NCBI GenBank assembly: GCA_964577715.1
Contig: CAZOAA010000001.1
Coordinates: forward strand, 13,396-77,395
Direction: 5' to 3'
Origin: an uncultured Candidatus Thioglobus sp.
GTDB taxonomy: Bacteria > Pseudomonadota > Gammaproteobacteria > PS1 > Pseudothioglobaceae
DNA length: 64,000 bases
Each line of letters opens with the position of its first letter. The stretch's first letter is position 1. The notes under the pieces were generated by a model. That model saw only the letters and a program-made list of their open reading frames with translations. It ran no database searches and had not been told where the DNA came from. A program made the position numbers and the translations under genes. This document shows, one piece after another, positions 2-15,603 of the stretch.

Positions 2-1375
2 AATTATTTCTATAAAAAAAATGCTTTATACAGTATATATACTCCCCCAAAAAATGTATTAGAGAAAGAAGTTTCAGCCTTTCCATACATAAGTTATAAA
101 GATGTTGAAAATGGTATTGATCTAGAAAGAAAAAAATTTGCCTTAAACAATAGATTGGGATTTAAAAAAACCTCTTGGAATTTATTTGTTGAACTGTATT
201 TTTCAATAATTAAAAACATCAAAACAGTTGGTTTTGGAGAAAACATACCGGTTAAGAATGAAATTGCTATAAATTTTTTAAAAAATAAAATTAAGGTAAA
301 GTTTTTAAGAAATAATGGGGTGGCGGTTAAAGAGGTGTATGCGCAACTACAAATTTTGAAAAAATATATAGGAGAAATTTGCTCTAATTTAGATGCAAAT
401 GAAGTATCTAATTCGTTATTTTTATTAATAGAGAGGCATATTAAAGGTCACGTCTCTAAATACGATCATAAGATTAAATGCGACCTTGTTGTTGTTGGGT
501 CATTATCGGAAAAAACAAATCAATTAAATGCAGTGATTGCAAATAGATTGAAAACCCCTGTATTAACTATGTTTCATGGTGAGGGGGACCAGTCTATATA
601 CGATGAGCCTAGATTTGGATATTGTGAAATGGTATTTGTTGACTATATATTAGGTCATGGATCATTAAATTCATACAATACAAAAAACTCTAAATATCTA
701 AATTCTGTAATTTTGAACAACCCAATTTATATACCTTCAAGCTCTGATTTTATTAAAAGCATTTATAATGGCGGCGCTATCCTCCCTATTGATAATTTAT
801 CTAAATTTCAGTGGATGTATGTCCCAGATTCACTTCAATTTGTTTCTCAATGGGGTCCTTATGGTGGTTATATTAATGACATGCTATATCTGAAATGGCA
901 AAAATCAGTTGTGTCTGCGTTTCCAAATTTAGTATACAAAAGACACCCAAAAGGTAATGTACTGTTTAGAGAGATGTCTAATAATGAGCTGGAAGAGTGG
1001 ATTAATCCCAATCATAGATTCAATGTAACAATTACTAGTGAAAATTTTTATAATATTTATAATGATTGTGATGGGTATGTTTTTGATACTGTTTCTACAG
1101 CATTTATGGTCGCAGTGGCTACCGATAAGCCTATAATTTATTTCAATATAGGTAAAAGGAATTTTAGAAAGGATGTAAAGAAAAAGATAAAAGAAAGGTG
1201 TTTATGGATTGATCATGATCCAGAAGATGATATAAATTTTGATGAAATTTCTAAGAAAATATTAAATTTTAATGGTATTAATAGGGTTACAGAATTATAT
1301 TCGCTTGACTTGCATAATGAATACAATGATAGGGGTGATGTGTTATTAAATTTTATCGATCATTTTGATCTATGA
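2..1375 (+). CDS. 5'-partial hypothetical protein; possible TagF/KpsC-like glycan transferase (function tentative)
   Basis: The frame of the 155..1375 ORF stays open back to nt 2 with no stop. The TTG at 155 is therefore probably not the start, and the gene enters from upstream of the window. The C-terminal YKRHPKGN ... DGYVFDTVSTAFMVAVATDKPIIYFN resembles the HP / S-T-rich / small-helix motif of TagF- or KpsC-type GT-B transferases. Confidence 0.4.
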   Translation, partial: NYFYKKNALYSIYTPPKNVLEKEVSAFPYISYKDVENGIDLERKKFALNNRLGFKKTSWNLFVELYFSIIKNIKTVGFGENIPVKNEIAINFLKNKIKVKFLRNNGVAVKEVYAQLQILKKYIGEICSNLDANEVSNSLFLLIERHIKGHVSKYDHKIKCDLVVVGSLSEKTNQLNAVIANRLKTPVLTMFHGEGDQSIYDEPRFGYCEMVFVDYILGHGSLNSYNTKNSKYLNSVILNNPIYIPSSSDFIKSIYNGGAILPIDNLSKFQWMYVPDSLQFVSQWGPYGGYINDMLYLKWQKSVVSAFPNLVYKRHPKGNVLFREMSNNELEEWINPNHRFNVTITSENFYNIYNDCDGYVFDTVSTAFMVAVATDKPIIYFNIGKRNFRKDVKKKIKERCLWIDHDPEDDINFDEISKKILNFNGINRVTELYSLDLHNEYNDRGDVLLNFIDHFDL

Positions 1376-3102
1376 TTAATCAGCTAAAGCAATTATGGAG
1401 TCACCTGGATGGTAGGCGGCATAGGCAATTTCTCGCATTACTATTGTTAATGGTTTTTTCCTCTGCACTGGAGGTTGTGAGTATTGGGGCGGTTGTTCCT
1501 TTTTTAGGAGTGTTGACATCTCCAGACGTAATTTTTAATCATTCACTTGCACAGCCTTTTGTAAATTTTTTCAATATAAACCATTCTGGAGAGTTGGTCC
1601 AGCCTTTAATTTTATTGTTTGTTGCACTGGTGGTTTTTTCTGGACTTATTAAGATATTATCGTTATATTTGACTACTAAATTTTCTTTTTCGATTGGTGC
1701 AGATATAAGTATAAAAATTTATCGTTTGACTTTGTATCAGGATTATTTGACTCATGCAAATAGAAATAGCAGTGATGTAATTAATGGCGTTATACAGAAA
1801 ACTAATCAGATTTCTGGTGGCGTATTTAGTTCATTTATAGCTATGCTAAATTCAAGCATCTTATTATTTGCAGTTATTTTGGCATTGATTATTGTTGATG
1901 CCGAGATTGCATTTGGAATTGCATCGATATTTTTTGTTTTTTATTTTGTGCTTATGCGTATTACCAGGAAAAGAATTAGAGAAAACAGTTTGTTTATAGC
2001 TAAACATACAACAAATATAATAAAATCTCTTCAAGAGGGTTTGGGCGGCATAAGGGATATTATTATTAATAATAGCCAAGAGTTATATTGTAAACTTTAT
2101 AGAAATTCTGACATCCCTGTGCGTCAAAAATCTGCAGAGAATGCATTTATTGGTGGAGCTCCTAAATATTTGATAGAAATGTTGGGAATGGCATTAATCG
2201 CATTAACAGTATTTTTTTTTAATTCTAGAGATGGTAGTCTTGGTGACTATATTCCAGTGGTTGGCGCTCTGGCTCTTGCGGCACAAAGAATACTCCCTGC
2301 GCTGCAACAAGTTTACAAATCTTACTCGACTGTAAAAAGTTTACAATATTCTATCGATGATGTTTTAGCCTTCCTAAGCCAAACACCTTCAGAGGATATA
2401 CACAGCACGGGAAAAGTGAGCGCACTTCCATTTGACACTGAAATACACTTAAAAGATATACGGTTTAAATATGACGATAAGAAAAAATGGATATTAAATA
2501 ATATTGATCTAACAATAGCCAAAGGTGATAAGGTTGGGTTTATTGGAGAAACAGGGTGTGGTAAGAGTACATTATTAGACATTGTTATGGGTCTGATCAC
2601 CCCGAAAAAGGGAGGGGTGTTTGTTGATGGTCAGTTGGTGAATGAAAAAAACAAAACCTTCTGGCAACGAAATATTGCACATGTTCCGCAAAGTATATTT
2701 TTATCTGATAGTAGTATTATGGAAAATATAGCATTTGGAGTGCCTGTGGGCGATATTAACAATGATCTTGTTAAGGATGTTGCAAAGCAAGCTGAGATTG
2801 ATTCGGTAATTGAGCAGTTGCCACAAAAATATCAAACAATAGTGGGAGAAAATGGCATGCGTCTATCTGGAGGTCAGAGACAGAGAATAGGTATTGCTAG
2901 AGCATTATATAAGCAAGCAAGTATTTTGATCCTTGATGAGGCGACTAGTGCGCTCGATCCAGATACTGAGAAGAGAGTGATGAATACTATTGACAATCTT
3001 AGTAAAGATTTGACTGTATTGATTATTGCGCACAGAATGTCAACTTTAAAAGAGTGTGATATGATTGTGAAGGTTCATCCTAATGGGATTAGATTTGAAT
3101 AA
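1372..3102 (+). CDS. Fused TMD-NBD ABC exporter (MsbA/PglK-like; candidate lipid-linked glycan flippase/exporter)
   Basis: Hydrophobic N-terminal half. Walker A GETGCGKST, Q-loop HVPQS, ABC signature LSGGQRQR, Walker B ILILDEATSALD, H-loop IAHR. ATGA overlap with the upstream ORF. Confidence 0.85.
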   Translation: MINQLKQLWSHLDGRRHRQFLALLLLMVFSSALEVVSIGAVVPFLGVLTSPDVIFNHSLAQPFVNFFNINHSGELVQPLILLFVALVVFSGLIKILSLYLTTKFSFSIGADISIKIYRLTLYQDYLTHANRNSSDVINGVIQKTNQISGGVFSSFIAMLNSSILLFAVILALIIVDAEIAFGIASIFFVFYFVLMRITRKRIRENSLFIAKHTTNIIKSLQEGLGGIRDIIINNSQELYCKLYRNSDIPVRQKSAENAFIGGAPKYLIEMLGMALIALTVFFFNSRDGSLGDYIPVVGALALAAQRILPALQQVYKSYSTVKSLQYSIDDVLAFLSQTPSEDIHSTGKVSALPFDTEIHLKDIRFKYDDKKKWILNNIDLTIAKGDKVGFIGETGCGKSTLLDIVMGLITPKKGGVFVDGQLVNEKNKTFWQRNIAHVPQSIFLSDSSIMENIAFGVPVGDINNDLVKDVAKQAEIDSVIEQLPQKYQTIVGENGMRLSGGQRQRIGIARALYKQASILILDEATSALDPDTEKRVMNTIDNLSKDLTVLIIAHRMSTLKECDMIVKVHPNGIRFE

Positions 3103-3187
3103 CTATTTAAATACTAGATGTTGATAATCAATGAGTCCTATAATAGAATACAATTGTCTTTTTAAATCATAAGTTGATGGATTTTTT

Positions 3188-3961
3188 ATGAAGGCGGTAA
3201 TATTGGCAGGTGGGCTGGGCACTCGATTAAGTGAGGAGACTGCACTTAAGCCCAAGCCAATGGTTGAAATTGGTAACATGCCAATTCTTTGGCATATTAT
3301 GAAAACTTACTCTTACCATGGTGTAAATGATTTTATTATTTGTTGTGGTTACAAAGGGTATGTCATAAAAGAATATTTTTCTAACTATTTTTTACATATG
3401 TCAGATGTTACATTTTGTATGAAGGATCAATCCATGAAAGTTCATCAAAATAACGCAGAACCTTGGACGGTTACCTTGGTTGATACAGGTGATAATACTT
3501 TAACTGGTGGACGTTTAAAACGTGTTTATGATTATATAAAAAATGATGACGCTTGTTGCTTTACCTATGGAGATGGTGTAAGTGATGTAGATATTTCCAG
3601 TCTAATTGAGTTCCATAAAAACCATGGTAAGTTAGCTACACTTACTGCTACACGTCCAACCGGAAGATTTGGCTCACTGAAAATATCTAAAGATAACACT
3701 GTTAACAGTTTTAAAGAAAAAATAAATAGTGACGAAAGTTGGATTAATGGCGGATATTTTGTCCTTTCCCCTAAAGTTATTGAATATATAGATGGTGATA
3801 ATATGGCATGGGAAGAACAGCCTTTAAGAAAGTTATCTAATGAAGGTAATTTAATGTCTTTTAAGCATGATGGATTTTGGCAGCCCATGGATACTTTATA
3901 TGAAAAAATAATGCTAAATAAATTATGGGATAGTGGAAAAGCGCCTTGGAAGGTTTGGTAG
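3188..3961 (+). CDS. rfbF: Glucose-1-phosphate cytidylyltransferase
   Basis: N-terminus MKAVILAGGLGTRLSEET..KPKPMVEIG..PILWHIMK, 257 aa, directly followed by a CDP-glucose 4,6-dehydratase homologue. Confidence 0.9.
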   Translation: MKAVILAGGLGTRLSEETALKPKPMVEIGNMPILWHIMKTYSYHGVNDFIICCGYKGYVIKEYFSNYFLHMSDVTFCMKDQSMKVHQNNAEPWTVTLVDTGDNTLTGGRLKRVYDYIKNDDACCFTYGDGVSDVDISSLIEFHKNHGKLATLTATRPTGRFGSLKISKDNTVNSFKEKINSDESWINGGYFVLSPKVIEYIDGDNMAWEEQPLRKLSNEGNLMSFKHDGFWQPMDTLYEKIMLNKLWDSGKAPWKVW

Positions 3962-5013
3962 TGGATTCAAAATTTTGGAAAGGGCGTAGAGTATTCTTAA
4001 CGGGCCATACTGGGTTTAAGGGGGGGTGGATTGCACTATGGCTTTCGCATATGGGGGCAAAAGTTTATGGGTATTCTTTGGCGCCATTAACAACGCCTAG
4101 CTTCTTTACTGAAACTAAATTGTCTGAACGAGTGGAGCGTTCGATAATGGGTGACATTAGGGATATAGAAAACTTAAAAAAATCTTTATTAGAGTCAAGG
4201 GCAAGTGTCGTCATTCATATGGCTGCACAGCCTCTCGTTCGAAAGTCTTATGCTGATCCAGTAGAAACATACTCTACCAATGTAATGGGTACAGTTAATA
4301 TTTTTGAGGCAATTCGACAAACAAATACAGTTAAAGCGGTTGTTAATATTACAACAGATAAGTGCTATGAAAATATGGAATGGGTGTGGCCCTATCGTGA
4401 AAATGATCGTTTAGGTGGCTATGACCCCTATTCATCTAGTAAGTCCTGCGCTGAAATAGTATCATCAGCTTATCGAAGTTCATTTCTTGCAAGTCAAAAT
4501 ATACATCTAGCGAGTGTTAGAGCGGGGAATGTTATTGGTGGAGGTGACTGGTCTGTTGATCGTTTAATACCAGATTTTTTAAGAGCTATTGAAGCAGGAG
4601 CCTCTCTTAAAATTAGATTGCCAAATGCTGTTAGGCCATGGCAACATGTGTTGGAGCCTTTATCTGGATACTTAATACTAGCTGAAAAGTTAGTTTTATG
4701 TGGTGAAAGATATGCTAGCGAGTGGAATTTTGGTCCAGATGAAAATGACACTAAGTCAGTATCTTGGATTGCCGACTATCTTTGTAGTAATCTTCCTAAC
4801 GCAAGTTGGAGGCATATTGAAACACCTCAGCCTCATGAATCTGGACTACTAAAATTAGATAGTAGCAAAGCAAAGTTGTATTTAGGGTGGTCACCAAAAT
4901 GGAATATAGAGGGCACATTAGATAAGACTATTGAGTGGCACAAGGCGTGGAAACAAGGTAAATGCATGACTGACTTTTCGATAGCTCAAATTGAAGATTA
5001 TCTTGCTATATGA
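3946..5013 (+). CDS. rfbG: CDP-glucose 4,6-dehydratase (a GTG at 3961 is an equally plausible start)
   Basis: FWKGRRVFLTGHTGFKGGW Rossmann N-terminus typical of RfbG/DdhB. Catalytic YSSSK (YxxxK). 355 aa. Confidence 0.88.
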   Translation: MEGLVVDSKFWKGRRVFLTGHTGFKGGWIALWLSHMGAKVYGYSLAPLTTPSFFTETKLSERVERSIMGDIRDIENLKKSLLESRASVVIHMAAQPLVRKSYADPVETYSTNVMGTVNIFEAIRQTNTVKAVVNITTDKCYENMEWVWPYRENDRLGGYDPYSSSKSCAEIVSSAYRSSFLASQNIHLASVRAGNVIGGGDWSVDRLIPDFLRAIEAGASLKIRLPNAVRPWQHVLEPLSGYLILAEKLVLCGERYASEWNFGPDENDTKSVSWIADYLCSNLPNASWRHIETPQPHESGLLKLDSSKAKLYLGWSPKWNIEGTLDKTIEWHKAWKQGKCMTDFSIAQIEDYLAI

Positions 5014-5570
5014 ATCATTTGACAATACATGATACTCATATTTCAGGGCTTCGTATAATTGAGCGTCATTCATTTGAGGATCGCCGAGGATATTTTGAAC
5101 GACTTTACTCCCATAAAGAGTTTGATAGTTTATTGCAGGATAGAATGATCAAGCAAATAAATCATACATTCACCCGTAAAAAAGGCACTGTTCGTGGGCT
5201 ACACTACCAACATCCTCCTTTCTCAGAGGTTAAAATTGTTTCCTGTTTGAAAGGTAGTGTTTGGGATGTTGCAGTTGATCTTAGAAAAAAATCACCAACT
5301 TTTTTGCAATATCATGCGATACGTATGTCAGAAGATGATTCTATTTCTTTCTGGATACCTGAGGGGTTTGCGCACGGTTTTCAAACATTAACCCATGATT
5401 GTAAAATGCTTTATCTACATACTAAAGAATACATGCCAAATTCAGAAGGTGCACTTAATGCAACTGACCCAAAAGTCAAAGTAGAGTGGCCATTAAAAAT
5501 TTCAGATATTTCTGATAAAGATAGAGGGCATCCATTTATCTCTAAGGGCTTTGAGGGAGTAGTTGTATGA
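5010..5570 (+). CDS. RmlC-fold NDP-4-keto-6-deoxyhexose 3,5-epimerase family protein
   Basis: Cupin-type RGLHYQ and WIPEGFAHGFQTL motifs, 186 aa, ATGA overlap with rfbG. Confidence 0.75.
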   Translation: MNHLTIHDTHISGLRIIERHSFEDRRGYFERLYSHKEFDSLLQDRMIKQINHTFTRKKGTVRGLHYQHPPFSEVKIVSCLKGSVWDVAVDLRKKSPTFLQYHAIRMSEDDSISFWIPEGFAHGFQTLTHDCKMLYLHTKEYMPNSEGALNATDPKVKVEWPLKISDISDKDRGHPFISKGFEGVVV

Positions 5571-6796
5571 ATTGCCGCCACTGTAAAAAAGAACTTGTAC
5601 ACACATTTTTAAACCTTGGGTTTTCACCGATATCCAATGCTTATTTGACAGAAGAAGATCTTTCAAAGCCAGAAAAATACTACCCTCTTAATATTAAAAT
5701 TTGCAATCACTGTTGGTTAGTACAAACTGAAGATTATCTCCATGAAGATCAGCTATTTGATTCAAATTATGCTTATTTTTCCAGTACTTCTAGTAGCTGG
5801 ATTGATCATTCTATGAAATATGTTAGAAAGATAACCAAAAAATTAGATTTAGATTCGGAAAGTTTGGTTATTGAAATTGCTTCTAATGATGGATATTTAC
5901 TTAAAAATTTTGTAGAAAATAAAATTCCATGTTTAGGAATTGAGCCTACAGACAGTACTGCAGATGCTGCAGAAGCTTTAGGAATTCCTGTGATTCGAGA
6001 ATTTTTTGTTGAAGATCTTGGTAAAAAGCTTGCTACTGAAGGTAGATTGGCAGATTTAATTATAGGGAATAATGTTTATGCGCATGTGCCTGAAATAAAT
6101 GACTTTACCGCAGGTCTTAAGGCAGTACTAAAAGAAAATGGAACTATTACTCTAGAATTTCCTCACCTATTGAATTTAATTGATCAGAATCAGTTTGATA
6201 CCATCTATCATGAGCATTTTTCATATCTGTCGTTATATACAGTTAGTAAAATATTTGCTATGCACGATCTAAGGATTTATGATGTAGAGCGGGTATTGAC
6301 ACATGGTGGAAGTTTGCGTATTTACGGCTGCCATTATAAGAGTCAATTAATAGAAAACTCAACTGTTCAAAAGATGCTGGAATTGGAAGAACAGTATGGG
6401 TTGAAACGATTAAATACTTATCAGAATTTTCAACAGCGAGTTGACAGGGTTAAAAATAGCTTGTTATATTTTTTAATTCAGCAGAAGCAGCTGGGAAAAA
6501 CCGTCTCAGCCTATGGTGCGGCGGCAAAAGGTAATACGCTACTAAATTATGCGGGTATTAAGCCTGATCTACTCCCTTTTGTTTGTGATGCAGCACCTAT
6601 TAAGCAGGGAAAATATATGCCTGGTAGTCATATACCAATTTTAAAACCTAATGCATTAGAAGTGCAAGCGCCTGATTATGTGTTGATTCTGCCATGGAAT
6701 ATTTCTGAAGAAGTAAAGCAGCAACTTATAAATGATCATTCATTTAAAGGAGATTTTGTAACAGTTATCCCCGAGTTGCAAATTATTAAACAATAG
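5567..6796 (+). CDS. NDP-hexose C-methyltransferase (TylC3-like class I SAM enzyme with N-terminal Zn-ribbon)
   Basis: N-terminal CRHC...CNHC zinc-ribbon pairs, SAM motif VIEIASNDGYLL, about 410 aa length and domain order typical of sugar C3-methyltransferases. Confidence 0.7.
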   Translation: MNCRHCKKELVHTFLNLGFSPISNAYLTEEDLSKPEKYYPLNIKICNHCWLVQTEDYLHEDQLFDSNYAYFSSTSSSWIDHSMKYVRKITKKLDLDSESLVIEIASNDGYLLKNFVENKIPCLGIEPTDSTADAAEALGIPVIREFFVEDLGKKLATEGRLADLIIGNNVYAHVPEINDFTAGLKAVLKENGTITLEFPHLLNLIDQNQFDTIYHEHFSYLSLYTVSKIFAMHDLRIYDVERVLTHGGSLRIYGCHYKSQLIENSTVQKMLELEEQYGLKRLNTYQNFQQRVDRVKNSLLYFLIQQKQLGKTVSAYGAAAKGNTLLNYAGIKPDLLPFVCDAAPIKQGKYMPGSHIPILKPNALEVQAPDYVLILPWNISEEVKQQLINDHSFKGDFVTVIPELQIIKQ

Positions 6797-7920
6797 TGAA
6801 ATCACGCATTCATTATACTAAACCCTCAATAACAGATTTAGAGGTTAAATATGCCGCAGATGCGGCAAAAAATGGTTGGGGTGAAGAATGCTATACTTAC
6901 ATAAGTAATTTTGAAAATCTTTTTAAACAGCACTTAGGTGTAGACTATGCGATAGCAACCTCCAGTTGTACTGGATCGCTTCACATGGGTATGGCTGCAC
7001 TTGGTATAGGGCCGAATGATGAAGTTATTATGGCTGATACCAATTGGATTGCCACAGCATCACCTATTGTTAACCTTGGTGCCAAGCCTGTATTTGTTGA
7101 CATTCTTCCTGATTCATGGTGTATTAATCCTGAGCTAGTAGAGGCAGCAATAACGCCAAATACTAAGGCAATTATTGCGGTACATTTATATGGAAATCTG
7201 TGTGATATGGATCGACTACTGGAAATTGGAAGTAAATATAATATTCCAGTTATTGAAGATGCGGCAGAGGCTATTGGCTCTATCTATCACGGAAAAAGAG
7301 CTGGCTCTATGGGGAAGTTTGGAGTTTTTTCATTTCATGGAACTAAAACTTTAACTACAGGGGAAGGGGGGATTTTTGTTACAAATGATGCAAATCTATA
7401 TGAACGAGTACTAACATTAAGTAATCATGGTCGTTCAAAAGAACAGGTAAAGCAATTTTGGCCTGACTTAGTAGGGTTTAAATATAAAATTTCAAATATT
7501 CAGGCTGCTATAGGTTGTGGCCAGTTAGAACGAATTGATGAGCTGGTTATGAAAAAAAGAGAAGTCTTTAAAATGTACCAGGAGAAATTAAATTCAATTC
7601 CTGGAATAAGCCTCAATTCAGAAGACAAAGGAACGGTAAATGGTGCGTGGATGCCAACTGTTGTTTTTTCTAAGGAATCGGGTGTAAAACGTGAGACTTT
7701 GCAAAGTGCCTTCAAAAGAGAAAATATTGATGCAAGAGTGTTTTTTTGGCCATTGTCTAGCTTACCAATGTTTCAAGCGAAAGAAAAGAATCTGAATGCA
7801 TATTCAATTCCTAAAAGATCTATCAATTTACCTAGTTATCACGATTTGAGCCTTGTAGAGCAACAAAGAGTTGTAGATGTCTTGTATTCTATTTCTTATG
7901 AGTTTGGCTTAAAAAAATGA
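6796..7920 (+). CDS. DegT/DnrJ/EryC1-family PLP-dependent sugar aminotransferase
   Basis: ATSSCTGSLHMGMAALGIGPNDEVI and FSFHGTKTLTTGEGG (PLP-lysine context). 374 aa. Confidence 0.85.
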   Translation: MKSRIHYTKPSITDLEVKYAADAAKNGWGEECYTYISNFENLFKQHLGVDYAIATSSCTGSLHMGMAALGIGPNDEVIMADTNWIATASPIVNLGAKPVFVDILPDSWCINPELVEAAITPNTKAIIAVHLYGNLCDMDRLLEIGSKYNIPVIEDAAEAIGSIYHGKRAGSMGKFGVFSFHGTKTLTTGEGGIFVTNDANLYERVLTLSNHGRSKEQVKQFWPDLVGFKYKISNIQAAIGCGQLERIDELVMKKREVFKMYQEKLNSIPGISLNSEDKGTVNGAWMPTVVFSKESGVKRETLQSAFKRENIDARVFFWPLSSLPMFQAKEKNLNAYSIPKRSINLPSYHDLSLVEQQRVVDVLYSISYEFGLKK

Positions 7921-8651
7921 GAATAATACTTATGGCAGATGGGATAGTTGGGTTTAAGATCGCCCAATACTTATCAAAACAATATCCAGGTGATTTATTT
8001 TTAATTGTTACTATTAAAAAAAATAATATATATAAGTTTTTTAAAAAAAATGGTTTTAATGTATTGGCTTTTGAATCAGAAGAGATTATTTTAAAAAAAC
8101 TTAACCATAAAGAGGTTGACCTTGGAATTCTAGCATGGTGGCCAAATATTATTAGATCACCTTTGATAGATTATCCAAAACAAGGCTTTTTGAACACCCA
8201 TCCAAGTTTCTTACCGTATAATCGCGGGAAGCACTTTAGTTTTTGGGCGATCGTTGAGCAGGCGCCATTTGGAGTATCTATACATTGTGTAAGCAATAAT
8301 ATTGATTCAGGTGATATAATAGCTCAAAAAGAAATAAACTACAACTGGTGTGATAATGGTGAATCTTTATATTATAAGTCCCAGGAAGAGATGTTAAATT
8401 TGTTTATTAAGACTTATCCATCTTTACACATGGGGTGTTTAAGTAAAAAAAAGCAAGATATGTCAAAGGGATCTTATCACCTGTCATGTGAAATTGAAGA
8501 GGCTAGCAAAATTAATCTTGATGATTTGTATACAGGGAGAGACATTCTAAACAAACTAAGGGCTCGAACATTTTCCGGGCATCCTAGTTGTTGGTTTGAG
8601 GATGAAAATATTGTTTATGATGTATCTATAGAAATTAATAAAAAAAAATAA
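7917..8651 (+). CDS. Sugar N-formyltransferase (Fmt/PurN-like formyl-transferase domain)
   Basis: NTHPSFLPYNRG (HxSLLPxxRG-type motif) and downstream IDSGDII. Sits directly after the aminotransferase. Confidence 0.72.
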   Translation: MRIILMADGIVGFKIAQYLSKQYPGDLFLIVTIKKNNIYKFFKKNGFNVLAFESEEIILKKLNHKEVDLGILAWWPNIIRSPLIDYPKQGFLNTHPSFLPYNRGKHFSFWAIVEQAPFGVSIHCVSNNIDSGDIIAQKEINYNWCDNGESLYYKSQEEMLNLFIKTYPSLHMGCLSKKKQDMSKGSYHLSCEIEEASKINLDDLYTGRDILNKLRARTFSGHPSCWFEDENIVYDVSIEINKKK

Positions 8652-8672
8652 TTTAAAAAAAAGTGAAATATT

Positions 8673-9638
8673 ATGGAAGCAAATAAAAGCTATTCCGACA
8701 GAAGTTCCGGATAGGATGTTGAGTCTGGAGTACGGAGTAATTCAGAAATATATGAATTTGACTTTTCAAATGAATCGTCTACCTCAGAAGAAATTAGTGT
8801 CAGTTGGCATTTAGATTCTTACTCAGGAATCCTTGAACATAATGAATTAAAAAGTCTTTCTGACAAAGATAAAGAGTTCGTAAAAGGTATTCAGTTATTA
8901 GAATTTGTCACTAAACAAACAATTTTTGAGATTGATTGTGTTAATTATGTAACTTCTAGACTAACGCATGGGAAATATAAATTTAATTTTTCTGAGTCTT
9001 TAAAGCTTGACGCTTTAAAAGTTTATACCGATGAAGGATATCATGCTTATTACACACAGAAAGTGGCCAATCAGATAAGGCATTATTACCATATTGGTGA
9101 GGACGATATTAGCCCATTTGTTAAAGACTATTATTCAAAGATCGAATTAATTATTTCCAAGTTTGATAAAAAATACAAAGATCTTTGTATGCTGGCATTT
9201 GTTATTGCTGGCGAGAATCAAATTGTCTCAGATCTTTCGAATGATATGCGAAAGATAGTCCATGAGCCTATTCGAAAGATGTTTAGAGATCATATGAAAG
9301 ATGAAGTATTTCATGCTAGATTCTTTAGTATAGTTTTTGAAAAAATTTGGCCTCAACTAAATGCTAAAGAGAAAGAAATTATGGGGTTGTGCTTTTGTGA
9401 CTCTATGGAAATATTAGGATCACCTCGTACTGATATCTATTATTTTTCTTTGGCCAAGCTGGGTTTTAACGAACAACAAATATCGCAATATATCAACGAT
9501 ATATATAATACAATTGAGTGGAAAACAACTAGAATTAGCGCTAGAATGGCTCCAACAATAAGCTTATTAAAATCAAATAATGTTTTTGATATTGAATCAG
9601 TTAAAAATGCGTTTCAGAGAAAAAATTATATAATATAA
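8673..9638 (+). pseudogene. Ferritin-like di-iron oxygenase (AurF-like fold) interrupted by an in-frame TAG at codon 14
   Basis: ATG at 8673 and the 9063..9638 ORF are in the same frame. The only stop between them is TAG at 8712..8714. The 116 codons between the TAG and the GTG at 9063 contain no ATG/GTG/TTG. Two ExxH motifs (DEGYHAYY at about 9030, DEVFHARFF) plus upstream and mid-protein Glu residues fit an E...ExxH...E...ExxH four-helix-bundle di-iron site. Confidence 0.5.
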
Positions 9639-9644
9639 GTAGCA

Positions 9645-9730
9645 ATGTCAAAATATTTAAAAGCAAATAGTGATTATTGGAGTCAGGCGGTTTATGATAA
9701 TCCAAACCCTGAGTCATATGTATTTAGAAT
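9645..9730 (+). pseudogene. 5' fragment (28 codons + 2 nt) of an IS-disrupted class I SAM-methyltransferase
   Basis: ATG 9645: MSKYLKANSDYWSQAVYDNPNPESYVFR, then the IS left end. The frame continues perfectly at 10475. Confidence 0.75.
9723..9730. repeat. Target-site duplication, left copy (TTTAGAAT)
   Basis: The identical 8-mer directly abuts the other IS end at 10467..10474. Confidence 0.85.
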
Positions 9731-9752
9731 GGGTCAAGATAACTTTAGAGGT
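9731..9752. repeat. IS terminal inverted repeat at the left window-side end (contains the transposase stop codon)
   Basis: See the mobile_element entry. 21/22 match to the reverse complement of 10445..10466. Confidence 0.85.
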
Positions 9753-10420
9753 TCATCTCTAAATATTTTAAGCAAATTTTGATACATATCTTCACCTCTA
9801 TTATTAAACCTAAATTCACATTCTTTTAGGTGTAAATTAAACATCTTTTTATCCATACCTTTAAACTTTACTAACCTTGTTTTGGCATAACCCCAGAATG
9901 ATTCAATTCCATTAATATGAGAGTTTCCTCTCACAAACTCATTCTTCCCATGGTGCACTCTAAAGTGCTTCTTATAGCCAAAATCTACTAAACCATTATA
10001 CCCACGCCAACCATCGGAATGAATAACACTACCAACATCAACTTTGCCCTTGATAACCTTCTGCAGCACAGCTGCAGAGCAATCAGGGACAATTTCAGTA
10101 TAAACCTTACCTTGTCTTTTTAACAAACCAAACACTATGGTTTTACCTCTGGCGCCACGGCCGCGTTTTCCGCGGACGCGCCGTGCACCAAAATAACTTT
10201 CATCAATTTCAATCTCACCTTTGAGTGGTGACTGATCTTGACAATACAAAAATATTCTAGACCTAATAGCTGTTAAATATTTGTTAATACTTGGTCTAGA
10301 TATTTTTGTTAAATGAGAGATTTGAGTTGCACTCAAATCCTCAGAAAACAAGTAAATTATTTCTCTAAATTTCTTCTCAGAAATGTGAGAACGAATTACA
10401 TACTTGTTTTTCATTGGCAT
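9734..10420 (-). CDS. IS1595-family (ISXO2-like) DDE transposase
   Basis: 228 aa. N-terminal HTH-like LSATQISHLTKISRPSINKYL, GRG-rich RVRGKRGRGARGK linker, HSDGWRGY and NGIESFWGYAKTRL motifs typical of IS1595 DDE transposases. Confidence 0.85.
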   Translation of the reverse strand: MPMKNKYVIRSHISEKKFREIIYLFSEDLSATQISHLTKISRPSINKYLTAIRSRIFLYCQDQSPLKGEIEIDESYFGARRVRGKRGRGARGKTIVFGLLKRQGKVYTEIVPDCSAAVLQKVIKGKVDVGSVIHSDGWRGYNGLVDFGYKKHFRVHHGKNEFVRGNSHINGIESFWGYAKTRLVKFKGMDKKMFNLHLKECEFRFNNRGEDMYQNLLKIFRDEPLKLS

Positions 10421-10444
10421 AGCAACATATTATCATGTTTTTAT

Positions 10445-10466
10445 ACCTCTAAAGTTATCTAGACCC
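10445..10466. repeat. IS terminal inverted repeat at the right window-side end
   Basis: See the mobile_element entry. Confidence 0.85.
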
Positions 10467-10474
10467 TTTAGAAT
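10467..10474. repeat. Target-site duplication, right copy (TTTAGAAT)
   Basis: Identical to 9723..9730. Confidence 0.85.
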
Positions 10475-11108
10475 ATATGGCCGTATTTTAAATTATCAGT
10501 TTGGCCTGAATGGAAAGAGAAATGATAATGTTCTTGATTTTGGTTGCGGTTCTGGGGGTAATTCTACATTTTTTGACTCTAAAGGTTTTAATGTTTTTGG
10601 TGTAGATCAAAGTGCTGGTGACATTGAAAGGTGTCACAAACGCTTACCAAATAAAGTCAATCAATTCAAAACTATAAGTCCAGAATGCTCTCAAGATGAT
10701 ATCTGGTTTCCTAGAGTAAAATTTAAAATTATTACTTCGTTCCAGGTTTTGTACTATCTCAATGATACAGATCTACAGAGAAGGCTTACATCGTTATACA
10801 ATATGCTTGAACCTGGCGGTATTTTTATTGCAACTATGATGCATACTAGCTCTTGGTATTATGGCATGAGTCATCCATCTGAAGATGGAATGAGGTTTGT
10901 CAAATTTTATCGTGAACAAGATGTTGGTAGGGGTAATCTTTCTATGAATGATCACTATATAAATTTTACTAATGATGAAAAAGATTTAATTGAAAAATTT
11001 AAAATCTTTCTCCCTCTGCATACCAAAGGTTATTATGATGGAGTGTATAGAGATGATCAAGGCTCTGAGAAGCATCTAGTTTTTATTGGTCAAAAACCCA
11101 AGATTTGA
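10475..11108 (+). pseudogene. 3' part of the IS-disrupted class I SAM-methyltransferase
   Basis: The track ORF 10404..11108 borrows its first 21 codons from IS sequence. From FRIYGRILNYQ onward it continues the 9645 fragment. SAM motif I VLDFGCGSGGN and post-I LEPGGIFIA are present. Joining 9645..9730 to 10475..11108 gives 720 nt, i.e. 239 aa plus stop. Confidence 0.8.
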
Positions 11109-11884
11109 AAAAAAATCAGAACCCCATAAGATTGATTGCTAGAATCGATGTTAGGAATGGCTATCATATTAAAACTATCAATGGTGAAGGGGTTAAGAAA
11201 CTACGAACAATTGAGGAGTCATTGGAGCGTTTCACAAAAGGTGTTAATGAGCATGATGAAATTCTTTTAATTGATGCTGTATCCTCTCTTTATGGTTTTG
11301 ATAATTGGTTAATTCGGCAGGATAATAAACATATGTATTGTCCAATACCTTTTTCTATTGGTGGTGGAGTGGCATCTGTTGATATGGCCATTTCCACTTT
11401 AGAAAAAGGTGCAGATAAAATTGTAGTTAATACTGCTGCCATTGCAAAGCCAAAATTATTATCAGATATTTCGAATATTTGTGGCAGGCAAGCAGTTGTG
11501 CTTCAGATTGATACAAGAAAAATTAATAACATTTATAGGTGTTTTATCAATGGATCGCGAGAGCTTTCCAATCTTACTGTGGAAAATTGGTTGCAGCAGG
11601 CCCAGGATAATGGGGTTGGTGAAATCCATGTAACTTGCATTAATTCTGAGGGTGTAGACGCTACTTTCCCTGATGATCTTGCAGATTTGTGCAGATCTAA
11701 TACACAACTCCCTTTGATTGTATCTGGAGGTATTAGAAGCGCCTTGGATATGAAAAATCTTAGATTAAAATTTGAAATTAATGCTTTCAGTTTTTCTTCG
11801 ATTACTAACCATTTGGGCCTAACCGTTGAACAAATCAGGCGCGACCTTTTGACGCTTGGAGAGAGTGTAAGGTGTCCACATTAG
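11105..11884 (+). CDS. wbuZ: HisF-like cyclase subunit of a glycosyl amidation system (WbuZ-type)
   Basis: HisF-type (beta/alpha)8 phosphate-binding motifs FSIGGGV and VSGGIRS. Followed by a HisH-like protein and an N-acetyl-sugar amidotransferase. Confidence 0.75.
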   Translation: MKKNQNPIRLIARIDVRNGYHIKTINGEGVKKLRTIEESLERFTKGVNEHDEILLIDAVSSLYGFDNWLIRQDNKHMYCPIPFSIGGGVASVDMAISTLEKGADKIVVNTAAIAKPKLLSDISNICGRQAVVLQIDTRKINNIYRCFINGSRELSNLTVENWLQQAQDNGVGEIHVTCINSEGVDATFPDDLADLCRSNTQLPLIVSGGIRSALDMKNLRLKFEINAFSFSSITNHLGLTVEQIRRDLLTLGESVRCPH

Positions 11885-12513
11885 TACATATTGTAAAACT
11901 TAAAAGTTCAAACTACAGATCTGTACAACAGGCGGTTATCGCAGGGGGAGGCGGAGTTACGCCAAAAATAATTGAAATAATTGAATTAAAAGATAGTTCA
12001 ATTTTAATTATTCCTGGAATTGGGAATATGGCTTCATTGGTAAGTGAAGTAAGTGAAAATCTTGATATAGAGCGGATTAGAAATTATATTATTTCTCATA
12101 ATATTAAGGTGATTGGGATTTGCTTAGGATTTCAATGGTTGTGCTCCAAGTCTTTTGAAAGCGAGCATTCTAAGTGTTTAAATTTAATTAATTGTACAGT
12201 TGAGTCGATCTTTACTCCAACAATGCCTTCTTTAGGATGGAAGAGGCTTAAAGAGTCTATTTTCAATAAAAATACTAGCTCATTATCGAATTATATTAAA
12301 GGTAAAGATTTCTATTTAACTCACTCTTTTGGGGTAGGCGATTTAGAGCTGAAGGGTGCAGAAGTTTATGTGTATTCTTCTGATGAAGCTAATAATTTGG
12401 TAGCTGCCGTTATAAGTAAAAATATTATTGGTTATCAGTTTCATCCTGAAAAGAGTGGCCAACACGGTGTAAAATTACTTCAGAAACCAATCTTATATTT
12501 GGAGAGTAATTGA
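11872..12513 (+). CDS. wbuY: HisH-like class I glutamine amidotransferase subunit (WbuY-type)
   Basis: Nucleophile elbow GICLGFQWL and C-terminal FHPEKS (His-Glu of the triad). Confidence 0.75.
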   Translation: MSTLVHIVKLKSSNYRSVQQAVIAGGGGVTPKIIEIIELKDSSILIIPGIGNMASLVSEVSENLDIERIRNYIISHNIKVIGICLGFQWLCSKSFESEHSKCLNLINCTVESIFTPTMPSLGWKRLKESIFNKNTSSLSNYIKGKDFYLTHSFGVGDLELKGAEVYVYSSDEANNLVAAVISKNIIGYQFHPEKSGQHGVKLLQKPILYLESN

Positions 12514-13742
12514 TAGTGAATAATTTACCTAAGGCGCCACCTTCTAAAACCGTTATCTTCTGTAAAACTTGTGTAATCTCAAATCAAAAACCTGTTTCAT
12601 CAATTGAATCTTCTCACTCGCAAGGAGATATAAAGAAAACGGTAAACTTTAAAGATGGAATTTGTGATGCTTGCCACTGGGCTAAAATTAAAGATCAAGA
12701 TATTGATTGGCAAGCTAGAGAGAGTGAATTAAAGAAACTACTTGACAAGCATAGAAAAAATAATGGTGAATATGATGTAATTGTCCCAGCTAGTGGGGGT
12801 AAGGATTCAATGTATGTGGCTCATATGTTGAAAGAAAAGTATAATATGAACCCTTTAACTGTAACATGGAAGCCCCATGTTTTTACACCTATTGGATTTG
12901 AAAACTTTATGAGTTTAATAGATAGTGGCCAAAGCAATCTAATGTTTTCTCCCCCTGGAGATATACAAAGGAGATTAACCTCTCTAGCATTTAAGAATCT
13001 AGGCCATCCATTTCAACCTTTTATTGTTGGACAAAGAGTTGTTGGTCCTAAGGCAGCACTAATGAACAATGTTAAGCTGGTCTTTTATGGTGAGAATGTT
13101 GCTGAATATGGTAATCAAATTAAAGATAATTACAGCCCCATTATGGATCCAGAGCTTTACACTTGTTTTAACCATGATAAAGATACTTTAGATTTATTTA
13201 AACTATCTGGTATTACTTTGAAAGACCTTATTGATAAACATGATTTCTCAATCAGTGATTTTGAGTCATATAAATCGCCATCATTGCTTGAAGTTGAGTC
13301 TGCAGGGATTCAAGTTCATTATATGTCTTATTATAAAAAATGGAATCCACAAGAAAACTATTATTATTCGGTTCAATATACAGGATTTAAGGCTAGTGAT
13401 AGGCGCAAAGATGGTAGTTACTCCAAGTACGCAGGAATTGATGATATTATGGAAGACTTGCATTTTTATATGCAAGTAATCAAGTTTGGTATGGGTAGAT
13501 GCACATGGGATGCTGCACAAGAAGTTAGGTCGGGTATGCTTGAAAGGCATGAAGAAGTGGCTTTGGTATCTAAGTATGATCAAGAGCAGCCAACTCAGTA
13601 TTTTCAAGAAATTCTTGAATATTTAAATATTTCTGAAAGTGAGTTTTGGTCAGTGATTGATTTTTTTAGACCTGAACATCTTTGGAGAGAGTTAGATGAT
13701 GGTAGTTTTTCTCTTAAACATCCTATAAGGTATGATACCTGA
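12510..13742 (+). CDS. wbuX: N-acetyl sugar amidotransferase (WbuX/PseA/LfnA-type PP-loop ATPase)
   Basis: N-terminal Cys pairs (CKTC..., CDAC), PP-loop VPASGGKDS, about 410 aa. Forms the canonical partnership with the HisH/HisF-like pair. Confidence 0.78.
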   Translation: MIVNNLPKAPPSKTVIFCKTCVISNQKPVSSIESSHSQGDIKKTVNFKDGICDACHWAKIKDQDIDWQARESELKKLLDKHRKNNGEYDVIVPASGGKDSMYVAHMLKEKYNMNPLTVTWKPHVFTPIGFENFMSLIDSGQSNLMFSPPGDIQRRLTSLAFKNLGHPFQPFIVGQRVVGPKAALMNNVKLVFYGENVAEYGNQIKDNYSPIMDPELYTCFNHDKDTLDLFKLSGITLKDLIDKHDFSISDFESYKSPSLLEVESAGIQVHYMSYYKKWNPQENYYYSVQYTGFKASDRRKDGSYSKYAGIDDIMEDLHFYMQVIKFGMGRCTWDAAQEVRSGMLERHEEVALVSKYDQEQPTQYFQEILEYLNISESEFWSVIDFFRPEHLWRELDDGSFSLKHPIRYDT

Positions 13743-13790
13743 CCCTTGTATTGGAAAATTCTATAATAGATTACATTTTTAATATTTAAT

Positions 13791-14579: not shown

Positions 14580-14586
14580 TATTAAA

Positions 14587-15591: not shown

Positions 15592-15603
15592 ATTTTTGAC
15601 ATT

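What the first reader, a model, noticed from the sequence alone, without database searches (positions are those of the whole stretch)
3188..8651. CDP-hexose route predicted to end in a C-methyl-branched formamido sugar
Seen: six contiguous, mostly overlapping genes encode RfbF (G1P cytidylyltransferase), RfbG (CDP-glucose 4,6-dehydratase), an RmlC-fold epimerase, a TylC3-type C-methyltransferase with Zn ribbon, a DegT aminotransferase and an Fmt-like N-formyltransferase.

Established:
- RfbF/RfbG give CDP-4-keto-6-deoxy-D-glucose.
- TylC3-type enzymes methylate carbon adjacent to the keto group of NDP-ketohexoses.
- DegT enzymes transaminate the keto group.
- Fmt-like sugar formyltransferases use N10-formyl-THF on NDP-amino sugars.

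Inference: the product is a CDP-activated, C-methylated, epimerised formamido-dideoxyhexose. To my knowledge, characterised formamido sugars and C-methyl branched deoxysugars are dTDP- or GDP-linked, and CDP routes are known mainly for 3,6-dideoxyhexoses. This combination may therefore define a new nucleotide sugar.
Basis: partly seen in the sequence, partly recalled or inferred. Interest (0 to 1): 0.6.

Follow-up and report, generated by a model that had tools for sequence, protein, structure and literature searches.

The report
CDP-linked methyl-branched formamido sugar cassette
Six intact, overlapping genes in a marine sulfur-oxidising (SUP05/Thioglobus) bacterium belong to a gene cassette, usually seven genes long and scattered across at least ten bacterial phyla, that most likely makes a CDP-activated, methyl-branched, N-formylated amino sugar whose structure nobody has determined.

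Summary
Six co-directional, overlapping genes at 3188-8651 encode a glucose-1-phosphate cytidylyltransferase, a CDP-glucose 4,6-dehydratase, an RmlC-type epimerase, a zinc-ribbon sugar C-methyltransferase, a Lys-containing DegT aminotransferase and a WbtJ-like sugar N-formyltransferase. All are full length, and the catalytic residues I checked are present.

They form one functional unit. Among 69 species genomes carrying the formyltransferase orthologue, 50 hold all six genes within 20 kb, 29 of them in this exact order.

- A seventh gene, a CmcI-type O-methyltransferase, directly follows the formyltransferase in 58 of 69 loci. Here it lies 5 kb downstream (13791-14579).
- The block between them holds a nonsense-mutated AurF-like oxygenase, an IS-split methyltransferase and a WbuZ/HisH/WbuX amidotransferase set.
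- CDP-linked 3-C-methyl sugars are already known (CDP-vinelose; Bacillus cereus CDP-cereose; both from my own knowledge).

The most likely product is CDP-4-formamido-4,6-dideoxy-3-C-methyl-hexose, probably L-series and 2-O-methylated. That would be the N-formyl relative of kansosamine and the 4-amino relative of vinelose.

I found no description of the pathway in the searchable literature. I rate it a new variant of a known kind, of moderate interest.

The parts
3188..3961 (+). rfbF/ddhA: glucose-1-phosphate cytidylyltransferase (257 aa)
   Evidence: TIGR02623 scores 434 bits against a cut-off of 300. It aligns with 1TZF over residues 2-257, E 6e-121.
3946..5013 (+). rfbG/ddhB: CDP-glucose 4,6-dehydratase. 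The likely true start is GTG 3961, which gives MDSKFWKGRRVFLTGHTGFKG.
   Evidence: TIGR02622 scores 491 bits against a cut-off of 278. The junction sequence was read.
5010..5570 (+). RmlC-type NDP-4-keto-6-deoxyhexose epimerase (186 aa). It is distinct from a second RmlC homologue on contig C23.
   Evidence: PF00908 at 1e-56, and TIGR01221 at 161 bits against 155.75. Catalytic His, Lys, Tyr and Asp align with 1DZR. The paralogue is 36% identical.
5567..6796 (+). Zinc-ribbon SAM-dependent NDP-hexose C-methyltransferase (409 aa), TylC3/MtmC/TcaB9 type
   Evidence: PF08421 plus PF08484. MtmC 4rv9 at 9e-68, KijD1 at 2e-62, TcaB9 at 1e-56. The Cys pairs and the IYHEHF motif are conserved.
6796..7920 (+). 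DegT-family PLP aminotransferase (374 aa), predicted C4 transaminase
   Evidence: PF01041 at 6e-122. The lysine in SFHGTK is present. The best solved relatives are 7b0m, perosamine synthase and ArnB. RfbH/E1 scores only 171 bits against a cut-off of 423.
7917..8651 (+). Sugar N-formyltransferase (244 aa; an alternative start gives 239 aa)
   Evidence: PF00551 plus PF18216. Best solved relatives are WbtJ 4nv1 at 3e-19, Rv3404c and VioF. Asn93, His95 and Asp130 are invariant.
8673..9638 (+). AurF-like di-iron oxygenase pseudogene, with an in-frame TAG at 8712-8714 where the intact relative has TGG
   Evidence: The intact 322-aa orthologue lies directly after the formyltransferase in L006-L008.
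9645..11108 (+). Class I SAM methyltransferase gene, split after about codon 28 by an IS element. The N-terminal piece is 9645-9730 and the rest runs to 11108.
   Evidence: Alignment to intact L006. tblastn gives two pieces at 90% and 81% identity. Pfam methyltransferase domains are present.
9731..10466 (-). IS1595-family insertion sequence (transposase 9734-10420). The 8-bp target duplication TTTAGAAT lies at 9723-9730 and 10467-10474.
   Evidence: NF033547 scores 186 bits. Terminal inverted repeats are 9728-9752 and 10445-10469. The duplication is visible. It is the only full copy in the genome.
11105..13742 (+). WbuZ-like (HisF-type), HisH-type and WbuX N-acetyl-sugar amidotransferase genes, lying between the formyltransferase and CmcI
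   Evidence: TIGR03572 at 136 bits (below its cut-off), TIGR01855 at 121 bits, and TIGR03573 at 317 bits against a cut-off of 203.
13791..14579 (+). CmcI/rhamnosyl-O-methyltransferase-family methyltransferase (262 aa). This is the displaced seventh gene of the cassette.
   Evidence: PF04989 at 3e-94. It is 50-72% identical to the gene that directly follows the formyltransferase in 58 of 69 loci.
1372..3102 (+). PglK/MsbA-type ABC exporter directly upstream (context)
   Evidence: A 48% identical homologue sits upstream of the cassette in L011.

Best explanation
The genes form one nucleotide-sugar pathway. None of the steps below is shown biochemically; steps 1, 2 and 7 rest on close or equivalog-level homology, and steps 3-6 and 8 are inferred from family, synteny and chemistry.

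1. RfbF makes CDP-D-glucose from CTP and glucose-1-phosphate.
2. RfbG dehydrates it to CDP-4-keto-6-deoxy-D-glucose.
3. The zinc-ribbon SAM methyltransferase methylates a carbon next to the 4-keto group through an enolate. This is most likely C3, giving a tertiary alcohol.
4. The RmlC-type enzyme epimerises C5, and C3 too if it acts before methylation. This puts the sugar in the L series.
5. The order of steps 3 and 4 cannot be told from sequence.
6. The DegT enzyme transaminates the 4-keto group.
7. The WbtJ-like enzyme transfers formyl from N10-formyl-tetrahydrofolate to the new 4-amino group.
8. The CmcI-type methyltransferase at 13791-14579 probably O-methylates the free 2-OH, either on the nucleotide sugar or after glycosyl transfer.

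The predicted product is CDP-4-formamido-4,6-dideoxy-3-C-methyl(-2-O-methyl)-hexose. It would be incorporated into the surface polysaccharide encoded by the surrounding glycan locus, which fills the whole 64-kb window.

The first four genes are a shared core that other bacteria continue differently. Some use a 4-ketoreductase, which gives vinelose- or cereose-type sugars. Others use the aminotransferase plus N-acylation genes.
For: Translational coupling is seen.

Synteny:
- The formyltransferase orthologue occurs in 69 GTDB species loci. Fifty hold all six genes within 20 kb: 29 in this order, 10 in a second fixed order, and 11 in other arrangements. CmcI is present in 62 and lies directly after the formyltransferase in 58.
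- The loci span Alpha-, Beta- and Gammaproteobacteria, Campylobacterota, Spirochaetes, Cyanobacteria, Fibrobacter, Bacteroidota, Planctomycetes, Acidobacteriota, Chloroflexi, Nitrospirota, Firmicutes and Verrucomicrobia.
- In Rhodopirellula (L004) the seven genes sit between housekeeping genes, accompanied only by a predicted metallophosphatase, one GT2 and a sulfotransferase. None of these is a nucleotide-sugar-modifying enzyme, so CDP-4-keto-6-deoxyglucose has no other consumer there.

Modularity supports amination at C4, the position the reductase would otherwise reduce:
- The same RfbF-RfbG-RmlC-methyltransferase core, with the methyltransferase 67-68% identical to the window's, is followed by an SDR reductase in Rhodoferax.
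- In Polynucleobacter it is followed by DegT plus acyl-activation genes.

From my own knowledge:
- B. cereus CDP-cereose biosynthesis shows a homologous-type C-methyltransferase acting at C3 of CDP-4-keto-6-deoxyglucose.
- Vinelose and kansosamine both combine 3-C-methyl with 2-O-methyl on an L-6-deoxyhexose.
Against: - There is no biochemical or glycan-composition data for any carrier of the cassette.
- C3 versus C5 methylation, the epimerisation pattern and the C4 stereochemistry cannot be read from sequence.
- One locus (Cyanobium, L040) has RmlC-methyltransferase-DegT-formyltransferase-CmcI without RfbF/RfbG in 20 kb, next to RmlA-like and RmlC genes. The nucleotide carrier may therefore not be CDP everywhere.
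- In this genome CmcI is separated from the formyltransferase by 5 kb that contains two dead genes. The local end product may therefore differ from that of the canonical cassette.
Confidence: 0.7

Rival explanations
1. The pathway is the same, but the methyltransferase methylates C5 (noviose/NovU-like, giving a 5,5-gem-dimethyl sugar) instead of C3.
For: C3 and C5 are both alpha to the 4-keto group. From my own knowledge, the noviose pathway uses the same enzyme set on a 2,3-dihydroxy substrate: NDP-glucose synthase, 4,6-dehydratase, an RmlC-like enzyme (NovW), a TylC3-family methyltransferase (NovU), then a C4 tailoring step. Family membership does not fix the regiochemistry.
Against: All solved relatives are C3 methyltransferases. 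From my own knowledge, the only CDP-linked examples known (cereose, cillose, vinelose) and the C-methyl sugars I recall from Gram-negative glycans are 3-C-methyl, whereas 5-C-methyl is known only from aminocoumarin antibiotics.
Confidence: 0.1
2. There are two separate pathways. RfbF/RfbG feed another CDP sugar, while RmlC, the methyltransferase, DegT and the formyltransferase work on dTDP-4-keto-6-deoxyglucose supplied by RmlA/RmlB elsewhere.
For: All characterised relatives of the last four enzymes are dTDP- or GDP-sugar enzymes. The Cyanobium locus L040 lacks RfbF/RfbG and lies next to RmlA-like and RmlC genes. The window's genome has a second RmlC on contig C23.
Against: RfbF/RfbG abut the other four genes, with overlaps, in the same operon position in 39 loci of distant phyla, and lie within 20 kb in 50 of 69. 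No E1/E3 or other CDP-hexose tailoring enzyme accompanies them. In the near-minimal Rhodopirellula locus nothing else could use their product. The same RfbF-RfbG-RmlC-methyltransferase core recurs with other tails.
Confidence: 0.07
3. The DegT-like protein is a PMP-dependent 3-dehydrase (E1/ColD type), so the route leads to a 3,6-dideoxy sugar as in classical CDP pathways.
For: CDP pathways are best known for E1 chemistry. E1 (3bb8) appears among the weaker hits.
Against: The active-site lysine is present in SFHGTK, whereas, from my own knowledge, E1 and ColD carry His at that position. The RfbH model scores 171 bits against a cut-off of 423. No E3 reductase gene is present. An N-formyltransferase needs an amine to act on.
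Confidence: 0.02
4. The cassette is a decaying remnant in this genome and makes no final product here.
For: Two adjacent tailoring genes are dead, one by a nonsense codon and one by an IS insertion. The cassette is absent from the 121 other species genomes of the family.
Against: All six genes, CmcI and the WbuX, WbuZ-like and HisH-type genes are intact and full length compared with their orthologues. The two lesions are single recent events.
Confidence: 0.08

Closest known systems
Bacillus cereus CDP-cereose / CDP-cillose four-gene operon (Li et al. 2017, J Biol Chem; recalled from memory, paper not retrievable)
   Same: It has a CTP:glucose-1-phosphate cytidylyltransferase, a CDP-glucose 4,6-dehydratase and a SAM C-methyltransferase that makes a CDP-3-C-methyl-4-keto-6-deoxyhexose.
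   Different: The B. cereus route ends with a 4-ketoreductase and has no RmlC-type epimerase. The window's route adds an epimerase and replaces reduction with C4 transamination, N-formylation and probably O-methylation. Homology between the two methyltransferases was not tested here.
CDP-vinelose (6-deoxy-3-C-methyl-2-O-methyl-L-talose) of Azotobacter vinelandii (Okuda, Suzuki and Suzuki 1967-68; own knowledge)
   Same: It is a CDP carrier of an L-series 6-deoxyhexose with a 3-C-methyl branch and a 2-O-methyl group. This matches the predicted action of RfbF, RfbG, RmlC, the methyltransferase and CmcI.
   Different: Vinelose has a hydroxyl at C4; the window's sugar is predicted to carry a formamido group there. 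To my knowledge the vinelose genes have never been assigned. The reductase-type cassette seen in Rhodoferax is a candidate.
dTDP-4-formamido-4,6-dideoxy-D-glucose pathways (WbtJ of Francisella, VioF of Providencia, Rv3404c of Mycobacterium)
   Same: They use a C4 transamination of an NDP-4-keto-6-deoxyhexose followed by N10-formyl-THF-dependent N-formylation. The enzyme has the same fold, the Asn-His-Asp triad and the small C-terminal dimerisation domain.
   Different: They use a dTDP carrier (RmlA/RmlB), with no C-methylation, epimerisation or O-methylation. Sequence similarity is only distant (E 1e-12 to 1e-19).
Kansosamine (4-amino-4,6-dideoxy-3-C-methyl-2-O-methyl-L-mannose), the N-acylated terminal sugar of Mycobacterium kansasii lipooligosaccharides
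   Same: It has the same predicted carbon skeleton and substitution pattern: 3-C-methyl, 2-O-methyl and 4-amino on an L-6-deoxyhexose.
   Different: Its N-acyl group is 2-methoxypropionyl, not formyl. Its nucleotide carrier and genes are not established, and the stereochemistry of the window's product is unknown.
CDP-3,6-dideoxyhexose pathway (RfbF/RfbG/DdhC/DdhD of Salmonella and Yersinia)
   Same: The first two enzymes and the intermediate CDP-4-keto-6-deoxy-D-glucose are the same. RfbF aligns end to end with the Salmonella enzyme (E 6e-121).
   Different: There is no E1 dehydrase or E3 reductase, and C3 is methylated rather than deoxygenated.

Membership tests
Glucose-1-phosphate cytidylyltransferase (RfbF/DdhA, TIGR02623) | Full-length match above the equivalog cut-off and close similarity to the characterised Salmonella enzyme | tested here: met
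   434 bits against a cut-off of 300. Aligns with 1TZF over residues 2-257 at E 6e-121. RmlA, GalU and GlgC models score below 35 bits.
Glucose-1-phosphate cytidylyltransferase (RfbF/DdhA, TIGR02623) | Use of CTP rather than dTTP or UTP | not testable with these tools
   Needs an enzyme assay.
CDP-glucose 4,6-dehydratase (RfbG/DdhB, TIGR02622) | Full-length match above the equivalog cut-off | tested here: met
   491 bits against a cut-off of 278. The dTDP-glucose dehydratase model scores 97 bits against 365.
RmlC-type NDP-4-keto-6-deoxyhexose epimerase (PF00908) | Cupin fold family match plus the catalytic His/Asp dyad, Lys and Tyr | tested here: met
   PF00908 at 1e-56, and TIGR01221 at 161 bits against 155.75. 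RGLHYQ, VKIV, LYLHT and SDKD align with the catalytic positions of 1DZR.
RmlC-type NDP-4-keto-6-deoxyhexose epimerase (PF00908) | Double (3,5) versus single (3 or 5) epimerisation | not testable with these tools
   From my own knowledge, mono-epimerases such as EvaD, NovW and ChmJ share the same residues. They appear as weaker hits.
TylC3/MtmC/TcaB9-type NDP-hexose C-methyltransferase | N-terminal Cys4 zinc domain, class I SAM fold and C-terminal PF08484 domain | tested here: met
   PF08421 at 1e-22, PF13489 and PF08484 at 3e-57. The CxxC...CxxC cysteines are conserved.
TylC3/MtmC/TcaB9-type NDP-hexose C-methyltransferase | Active-site Tyr-x-Glu-His motif (TcaB9 Y222/E224/H225, numbering from my own knowledge) | tested here: met
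   IYHEHF aligns with MtmC IYHEHL and KijD1 IYDEHF.
TylC3/MtmC/TcaB9-type NDP-hexose C-methyltransferase | Methylation at C3 of a 4-keto sugar | not testable with these tools
   Inferred from relatives only. NovU-type C5 methylation is not excluded.
DegT/DnrJ/EryC1 sugar aminotransferase | PLP Schiff-base lysine (His in dehydrases) | tested here: met
   SFHGTK is present. PF01041 scores 408 bits.
DegT/DnrJ/EryC1 sugar aminotransferase | Action at C4 | tested here: inconclusive
   The closest solved enzymes with a known substrate are C4 enzymes (perosamine synthase, ArnB). No 3,4-ketoisomerase is present. A 4-ketoreductase occupies the same slot in Rhodoferax.
Sugar N-formyltransferase (WbtJ/VioF/Rv3404c type) | Formyl_trans_N core with the Asn-His-Asp triad, a small C-terminal dimerisation domain, and no tRNA-binding domain | tested here: met
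   PF00551 plus PF18216, 244 aa. N93, H95 and D130 are invariant in 28 homologues. Best PDB hits are 4nv1, 4pzu and 4yfv.
B. cereus CDP-cereose operon | Terminal NADPH-dependent CDP-3-C-methyl-6-deoxyhexose 4-reductase and no epimerase | tested here: not met
   DegT and the formyltransferase follow the methyltransferase, and an RmlC-type gene precedes it. It works like the first three steps of that operon but is not a member.
CDP-3,6-dideoxyhexose pathway | E1 (DdhC/RfbH) 3-dehydrase and E3 (DdhD) reductase | tested here: not met
   The RfbH model scores 171 bits against a cut-off of 423 on the DegT protein. No E3-like gene is found in 1-22000.

The most novel reading that the evidence does not exclude
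The seven-gene cassette makes a nucleotide sugar never described: CDP-4-formamido-4,6-dideoxy-3-C-methyl-2-O-methyl-L-hexose, or 'CDP-N-formylkansosamine'. This sugar would serve across many phyla as the non-reducing-end cap of ABC-transporter-exported polysaccharides, read by a co-inherited Wzt C-terminal domain.

In the SUP05 lineage an add-on block (AurF-like di-iron oxygenase, methyltransferase, WbuXYZ-like amidotransferase set) would once have converted the formamido group further, for example to an amidine or an N-oxygenated derivative. The oxygenase and the methyltransferase have since been inactivated.
Probability: 0.2. Interest if true: 0.7.

Novelty: new variant of a known kind. Interest (0 to 1): 0.5.

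Why it matters
N-formylated and branched-chain sugars are rare and strongly antigenic surface decorations. Until now N-formylated sugars have been tied to dTDP or GDP carriers.

If the prediction holds:
- It adds a CDP-linked amino/formamido branch to nucleotide-sugar biochemistry.
- It gives a gene signature for a kansosamine-like sugar in dozens of environmental and plant-associated genera. These include Bradyrhizobium, Agrobacterium, Cupriavidus, Synechococcus, Rhodopirellula and SUP05.
- It supplies enzymes that accept CDP-sugars, which would be useful for glycoengineering.

The co-travelling Wzt domain offers a testable case of a conserved cap-and-reader pair for polysaccharide export.

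Tried and rejected
- I found no description of a CDP-linked formamido, 4-amino or C-methyl sugar in the open-access library.
- 'Vinelose' returned nothing.
- The B. cereus cereose paper could not be fetched by DOI.
- Absence from this library is weak evidence, because most sugar-enzymology papers are in subscription journals.

Hypotheses rejected:
- An E1-type dehydrase role for DegT, because the lysine is present and the RfbH score is low.
- A methionyl-tRNA formyltransferase role for the formyltransferase. It is 244 aa with the sugar-formyltransferase C-terminal domain, and scores 65 bits against the fmt cut-off of 201.
- The IS as part of the pathway.
- A compositional island signal. The cassette is 35.6% GC against 36.8% for the genome.

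Searches with no result:
- Homologues of the window's downstream GT2 (14587-15591) and of the 546-aa unknown protein next to other cassettes: none found.
- A Wzm/Wzt pair with the conserved C-terminal domain in the window's own genome: none found.

The organism's name was not returned by the exact look-up. It was inferred from RpoB homologues instead.

Full report
**1. What is there.** The window carries one long array of co-directional glycan-biosynthesis genes.
- At 3188-8651 six ORFs follow each other with overlaps of 1-16, 4, 4, 1 and 4 nt.
- The first two pass NCBI's equivalog models for glucose-1-phosphate cytidylyltransferase (434 bits, cut-off 300) and CDP-glucose 4,6-dehydratase (491 bits, cut-off 278). 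Models for dTDP-, UDP-, GDP- and ADP-sugar enzymes score far lower.
- The cytidylyltransferase aligns end to end with the solved Salmonella enzyme 1TZF (E 6e-121).
- The third protein is an RmlC-type cupin with the catalytic His, Lys, Tyr and Asp in place.
- The fourth has the Cys4 zinc domain, the SAM fold and the C-terminal domain of sugar C-methyltransferases. It matches MtmC, KijD1 and TcaB9 over its full length and keeps the Tyr-x-Glu-His motif.
- The fifth is a DegT aminotransferase with the Schiff-base lysine. Its nearest solved relatives of known substrate are the C4 enzymes perosamine synthase and ArnB.
- The sixth is a 244-aa sugar N-formyltransferase with the Asn-His-Asp triad and the small C-terminal dimerisation domain. 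Its nearest solved relatives are WbtJ and Rv3404c, which are 4-amino-sugar formyltransferases.

**2. One pathway, and a mobile one.** I used an alignment of formyltransferase homologues to scan one genome per GTDB species and kept 80 loci. I then located homologues of each window protein in them.
- Of 69 loci with a formyltransferase orthologue (at least 37% identity), 50 contain all six genes within 20 kb.
- 29 have exactly the window's order and nearly identical spacing. Ten have a second fixed order (RfbF-RfbG-methyltransferase-RmlC-formyltransferase-CmcI-DegT). Eleven have other arrangements.
- Most of the 19 remaining loci lie on short or truncated contigs.
- The carriers are Alpha-, Beta- and Gammaproteobacteria, Sulfurimonas, Spirochaetes, Synechococcus/Cyanobium, Fibrobacter, Bacteroidota, Planctomycetes, Acidobacteriota, Chloroflexi, Nitrospirota, Desulfotomaculum and Verrucomicrobia.
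- Independent look-ups gave the same picture in Methylotenera, Paraglaciecola and Rhodopirellula.
- In Rhodopirellula the cassette sits between housekeeping genes, accompanied only by a predicted metallophosphatase, one GT2 and a sulfotransferase. RfbF/RfbG have no other possible client there.
- Within the window's own family (SUP05/Thioglobaceae; RpoB is 94% identical to Candidatus Thioglobus MAGs), the formyltransferase is found in no other of 121 species genomes.
- The cassette is therefore phylogenetically broad but sparse, as expected for a horizontally exchanged surface-antigen module. Its GC content (35.6%) does not stand out from the genome (36.8%).

**3.
- *A seventh gene.* A CmcI/rhamnosyl-O-methyltransferase-family gene is present in 62 of the 69 loci and directly follows the formyltransferase in 58. 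The window has its orthologue (50-72% identity) at 13791-14579, 5 kb downstream.
- *The block in between.* It is shared, at least as far as its first three genes, with the closest relatives (L006-L008, formyltransferase 76% identical; their short contigs end in the WbuZ-like gene). It encodes an AurF-like di-iron oxygenase, a class I methyltransferase, and WbuZ-like, HisH-type and WbuX amidotransferase proteins.
- *Two dead genes.* In the window the oxygenase gene carries TAG at 8712-8714 where the relative has TGG. The methyltransferase gene is split after about codon 28 by a complete IS1595-family element with inverted repeats and an 8-bp duplication. Earlier notes of this scan (e1-3070755, e1-3070753) say the same, and I re-derived both.
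- *The core is modular.* The methyltransferase has thousands of homologues at 65-72% identity. In Rhodoferax the same RfbF-RfbG-RmlC-methyltransferase core is followed by an SDR reductase. In Polynucleobacter it is followed by DegT plus AMP-ligase, LuxE, LuxC, a small 78-aa protein that may be a carrier protein, KR and FabA genes.
- Amination therefore replaces reduction at C4, and formylation is one of several N-acyl options.

**4. Mechanism.** The best-supported route has these steps:
1. CDP-glucose formation.
2. 4,6-dehydration.
3. Enolate C-methylation next to the 4-keto group, most likely at C3.
4. C5 (and possibly C3) epimerisation.
5. C4 transamination.
6. N-formylation.
7. Probably 2-O-methylation by the CmcI-type enzyme.

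- Steps 1 and 2 rest on equivalog-level homology.
- Steps 3 to 7 are inferred from family, catalytic residues, synteny and chemical logic.
- Stereochemistry and the order of methylation and epimerisation are open.
- The predicted sugar is the N-formyl analogue of kansosamine and the 4-amino analogue of vinelose.
- A rival I cannot exclude is C5 methylation as in noviose biosynthesis.
- A two-pathway reading is unlikely given the synteny. However, the Cyanobium locus L040 lacks RfbF/RfbG and sits by RmlA-like and RmlC genes, so the carrier nucleotide may not be universal.

**5. Comparison with the known.**
- CDP-vinelose was isolated from Azotobacter vinelandii in the 1960s.
- A four-gene B. 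cereus operon was shown biochemically to make CDP-3-C-methyl-6-deoxygulose and -allose (Li et al. 2017).
- Both points are from my own knowledge.
- The window's cassette works like that operon for three steps. It fails its defining last step (a reductase) and adds an epimerase, an aminotransferase, a formyltransferase and an O-methyltransferase.
- It works like the dTDP-Qui4NFo pathways for the last two steps, but on a CDP carrier.
- Ten literature searches found no CDP-linked amino or formamido sugar. The library lacks most subscription journals, so this is weak evidence.
- I class it as a new variant of a known kind.

**6. A lead beyond the finding.**
- In 19 loci a Wzm/Wzt exporter pair lies upstream of the cassette, in most of them immediately before RfbF.
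- The Wzt C-terminal extension of the Cyanobium locus finds homologues at 26-39% identity (E 1e-12 to 1e-35) beside the cassette in 18 other loci, from Proteobacteria, Acidobacteriota, Chloroflexi and Spirochaetes.
- From my own knowledge, that domain binds the chain-terminating cap in the studied O-antigen systems and is normally serotype-specific.
- This suggests the cassette's sugar is a terminal cap. I had no negative control for it.
- The window's genome has no such Wzt. It has a PglK/MsbA-type ABC protein upstream and a Wzx-like flippase in the locus.

**7. Verdict.** The pathway is uncharacterised, widespread and directly testable in cultured carriers. Interest is moderate (0.5).

Noticed in passing
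L020, L033, L040, L044, L048, L053, L054, L056, L057, L061, L072 and others (Wzm/Wzt just upstream of RfbF): A Wzm/Wzt ABC-2 exporter pair travels with the cassette in 19 of 69 loci. The Wzt C-terminal extension of the Cyanobium locus finds homologues at 26-39% identity beside the cassette in 18 other loci of several phyla. This hints that the sugar is a chain-terminating cap read by that domain.
   Followed up: partly
window 8673-9638: The AurF-like di-iron oxygenase gene is inactivated by a single TGG-to-TAG change at codon 14. An intact orthologue directly follows the formyltransferase in the closest relatives (L006-L008). A di-iron N-oxygenase-like enzyme inside an amino-sugar module is unexplained.
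   Followed up: partly
window 9645-11108: A class I methyltransferase gene is split by a complete IS1595-family element (9731-10466, TSD TTTAGAAT). This is the only full copy of the IS in the genome, and a degenerate remnant lies on contig C3.
   Followed up: yes
window 11105-13742: A WbuZ-like, HisH-type and WbuX N-acetyl-sugar amidotransferase trio sits between the formyltransferase and the CmcI methyltransferase. It might amidinate the formamido group, or it might serve the nonulosonic-acid modules further downstream.
   Followed up: no
window 3946-6796 compared with L001-L077: The cassette looks mosaic. The window's RfbG is 56-62% identical to one set of loci (for example L001, L010-L012, L029, L072) whose methyltransferase is only 50-53% identical. 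Loci with 60-66% identical methyltransferases have 45-49% identical RfbG. In L006 the RmlC is only 43% identical while its neighbours are 72-80%.
   Followed up: no
L091 (Polynucleobacter paneuropaeus) 4593-15224: The same RfbF-RfbG-RmlC-methyltransferase-DegT core is followed by AMP-ligase, LuxE, LuxC, a small 78-aa protein with no Pfam hit (possibly a carrier protein), KR and FabA genes. This predicts an N-(hydroxy)acyl version of the branched amino sugar, reminiscent of N-acyl kansosamine.
   Followed up: no
L040 (Cyanobium sp. CACIAM 14) 2613-11490: RmlA-like, RmlC, Wzm and Wzt genes are followed by RmlC-methyltransferase-DegT-formyltransferase-CmcI, with no RfbF/RfbG within 20 kb. This may be a dTDP-fed version of the cassette.
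   Followed up: partly
window 14587-18146: A GT2-like glycosyltransferase, a 546-aa protein with no family and a sulfotransferase follow CmcI. A GT2 plus a sulfotransferase also flank the near-minimal Rhodopirellula cassette (L004), but they are not detectably homologous to the window's.
   Followed up: partly
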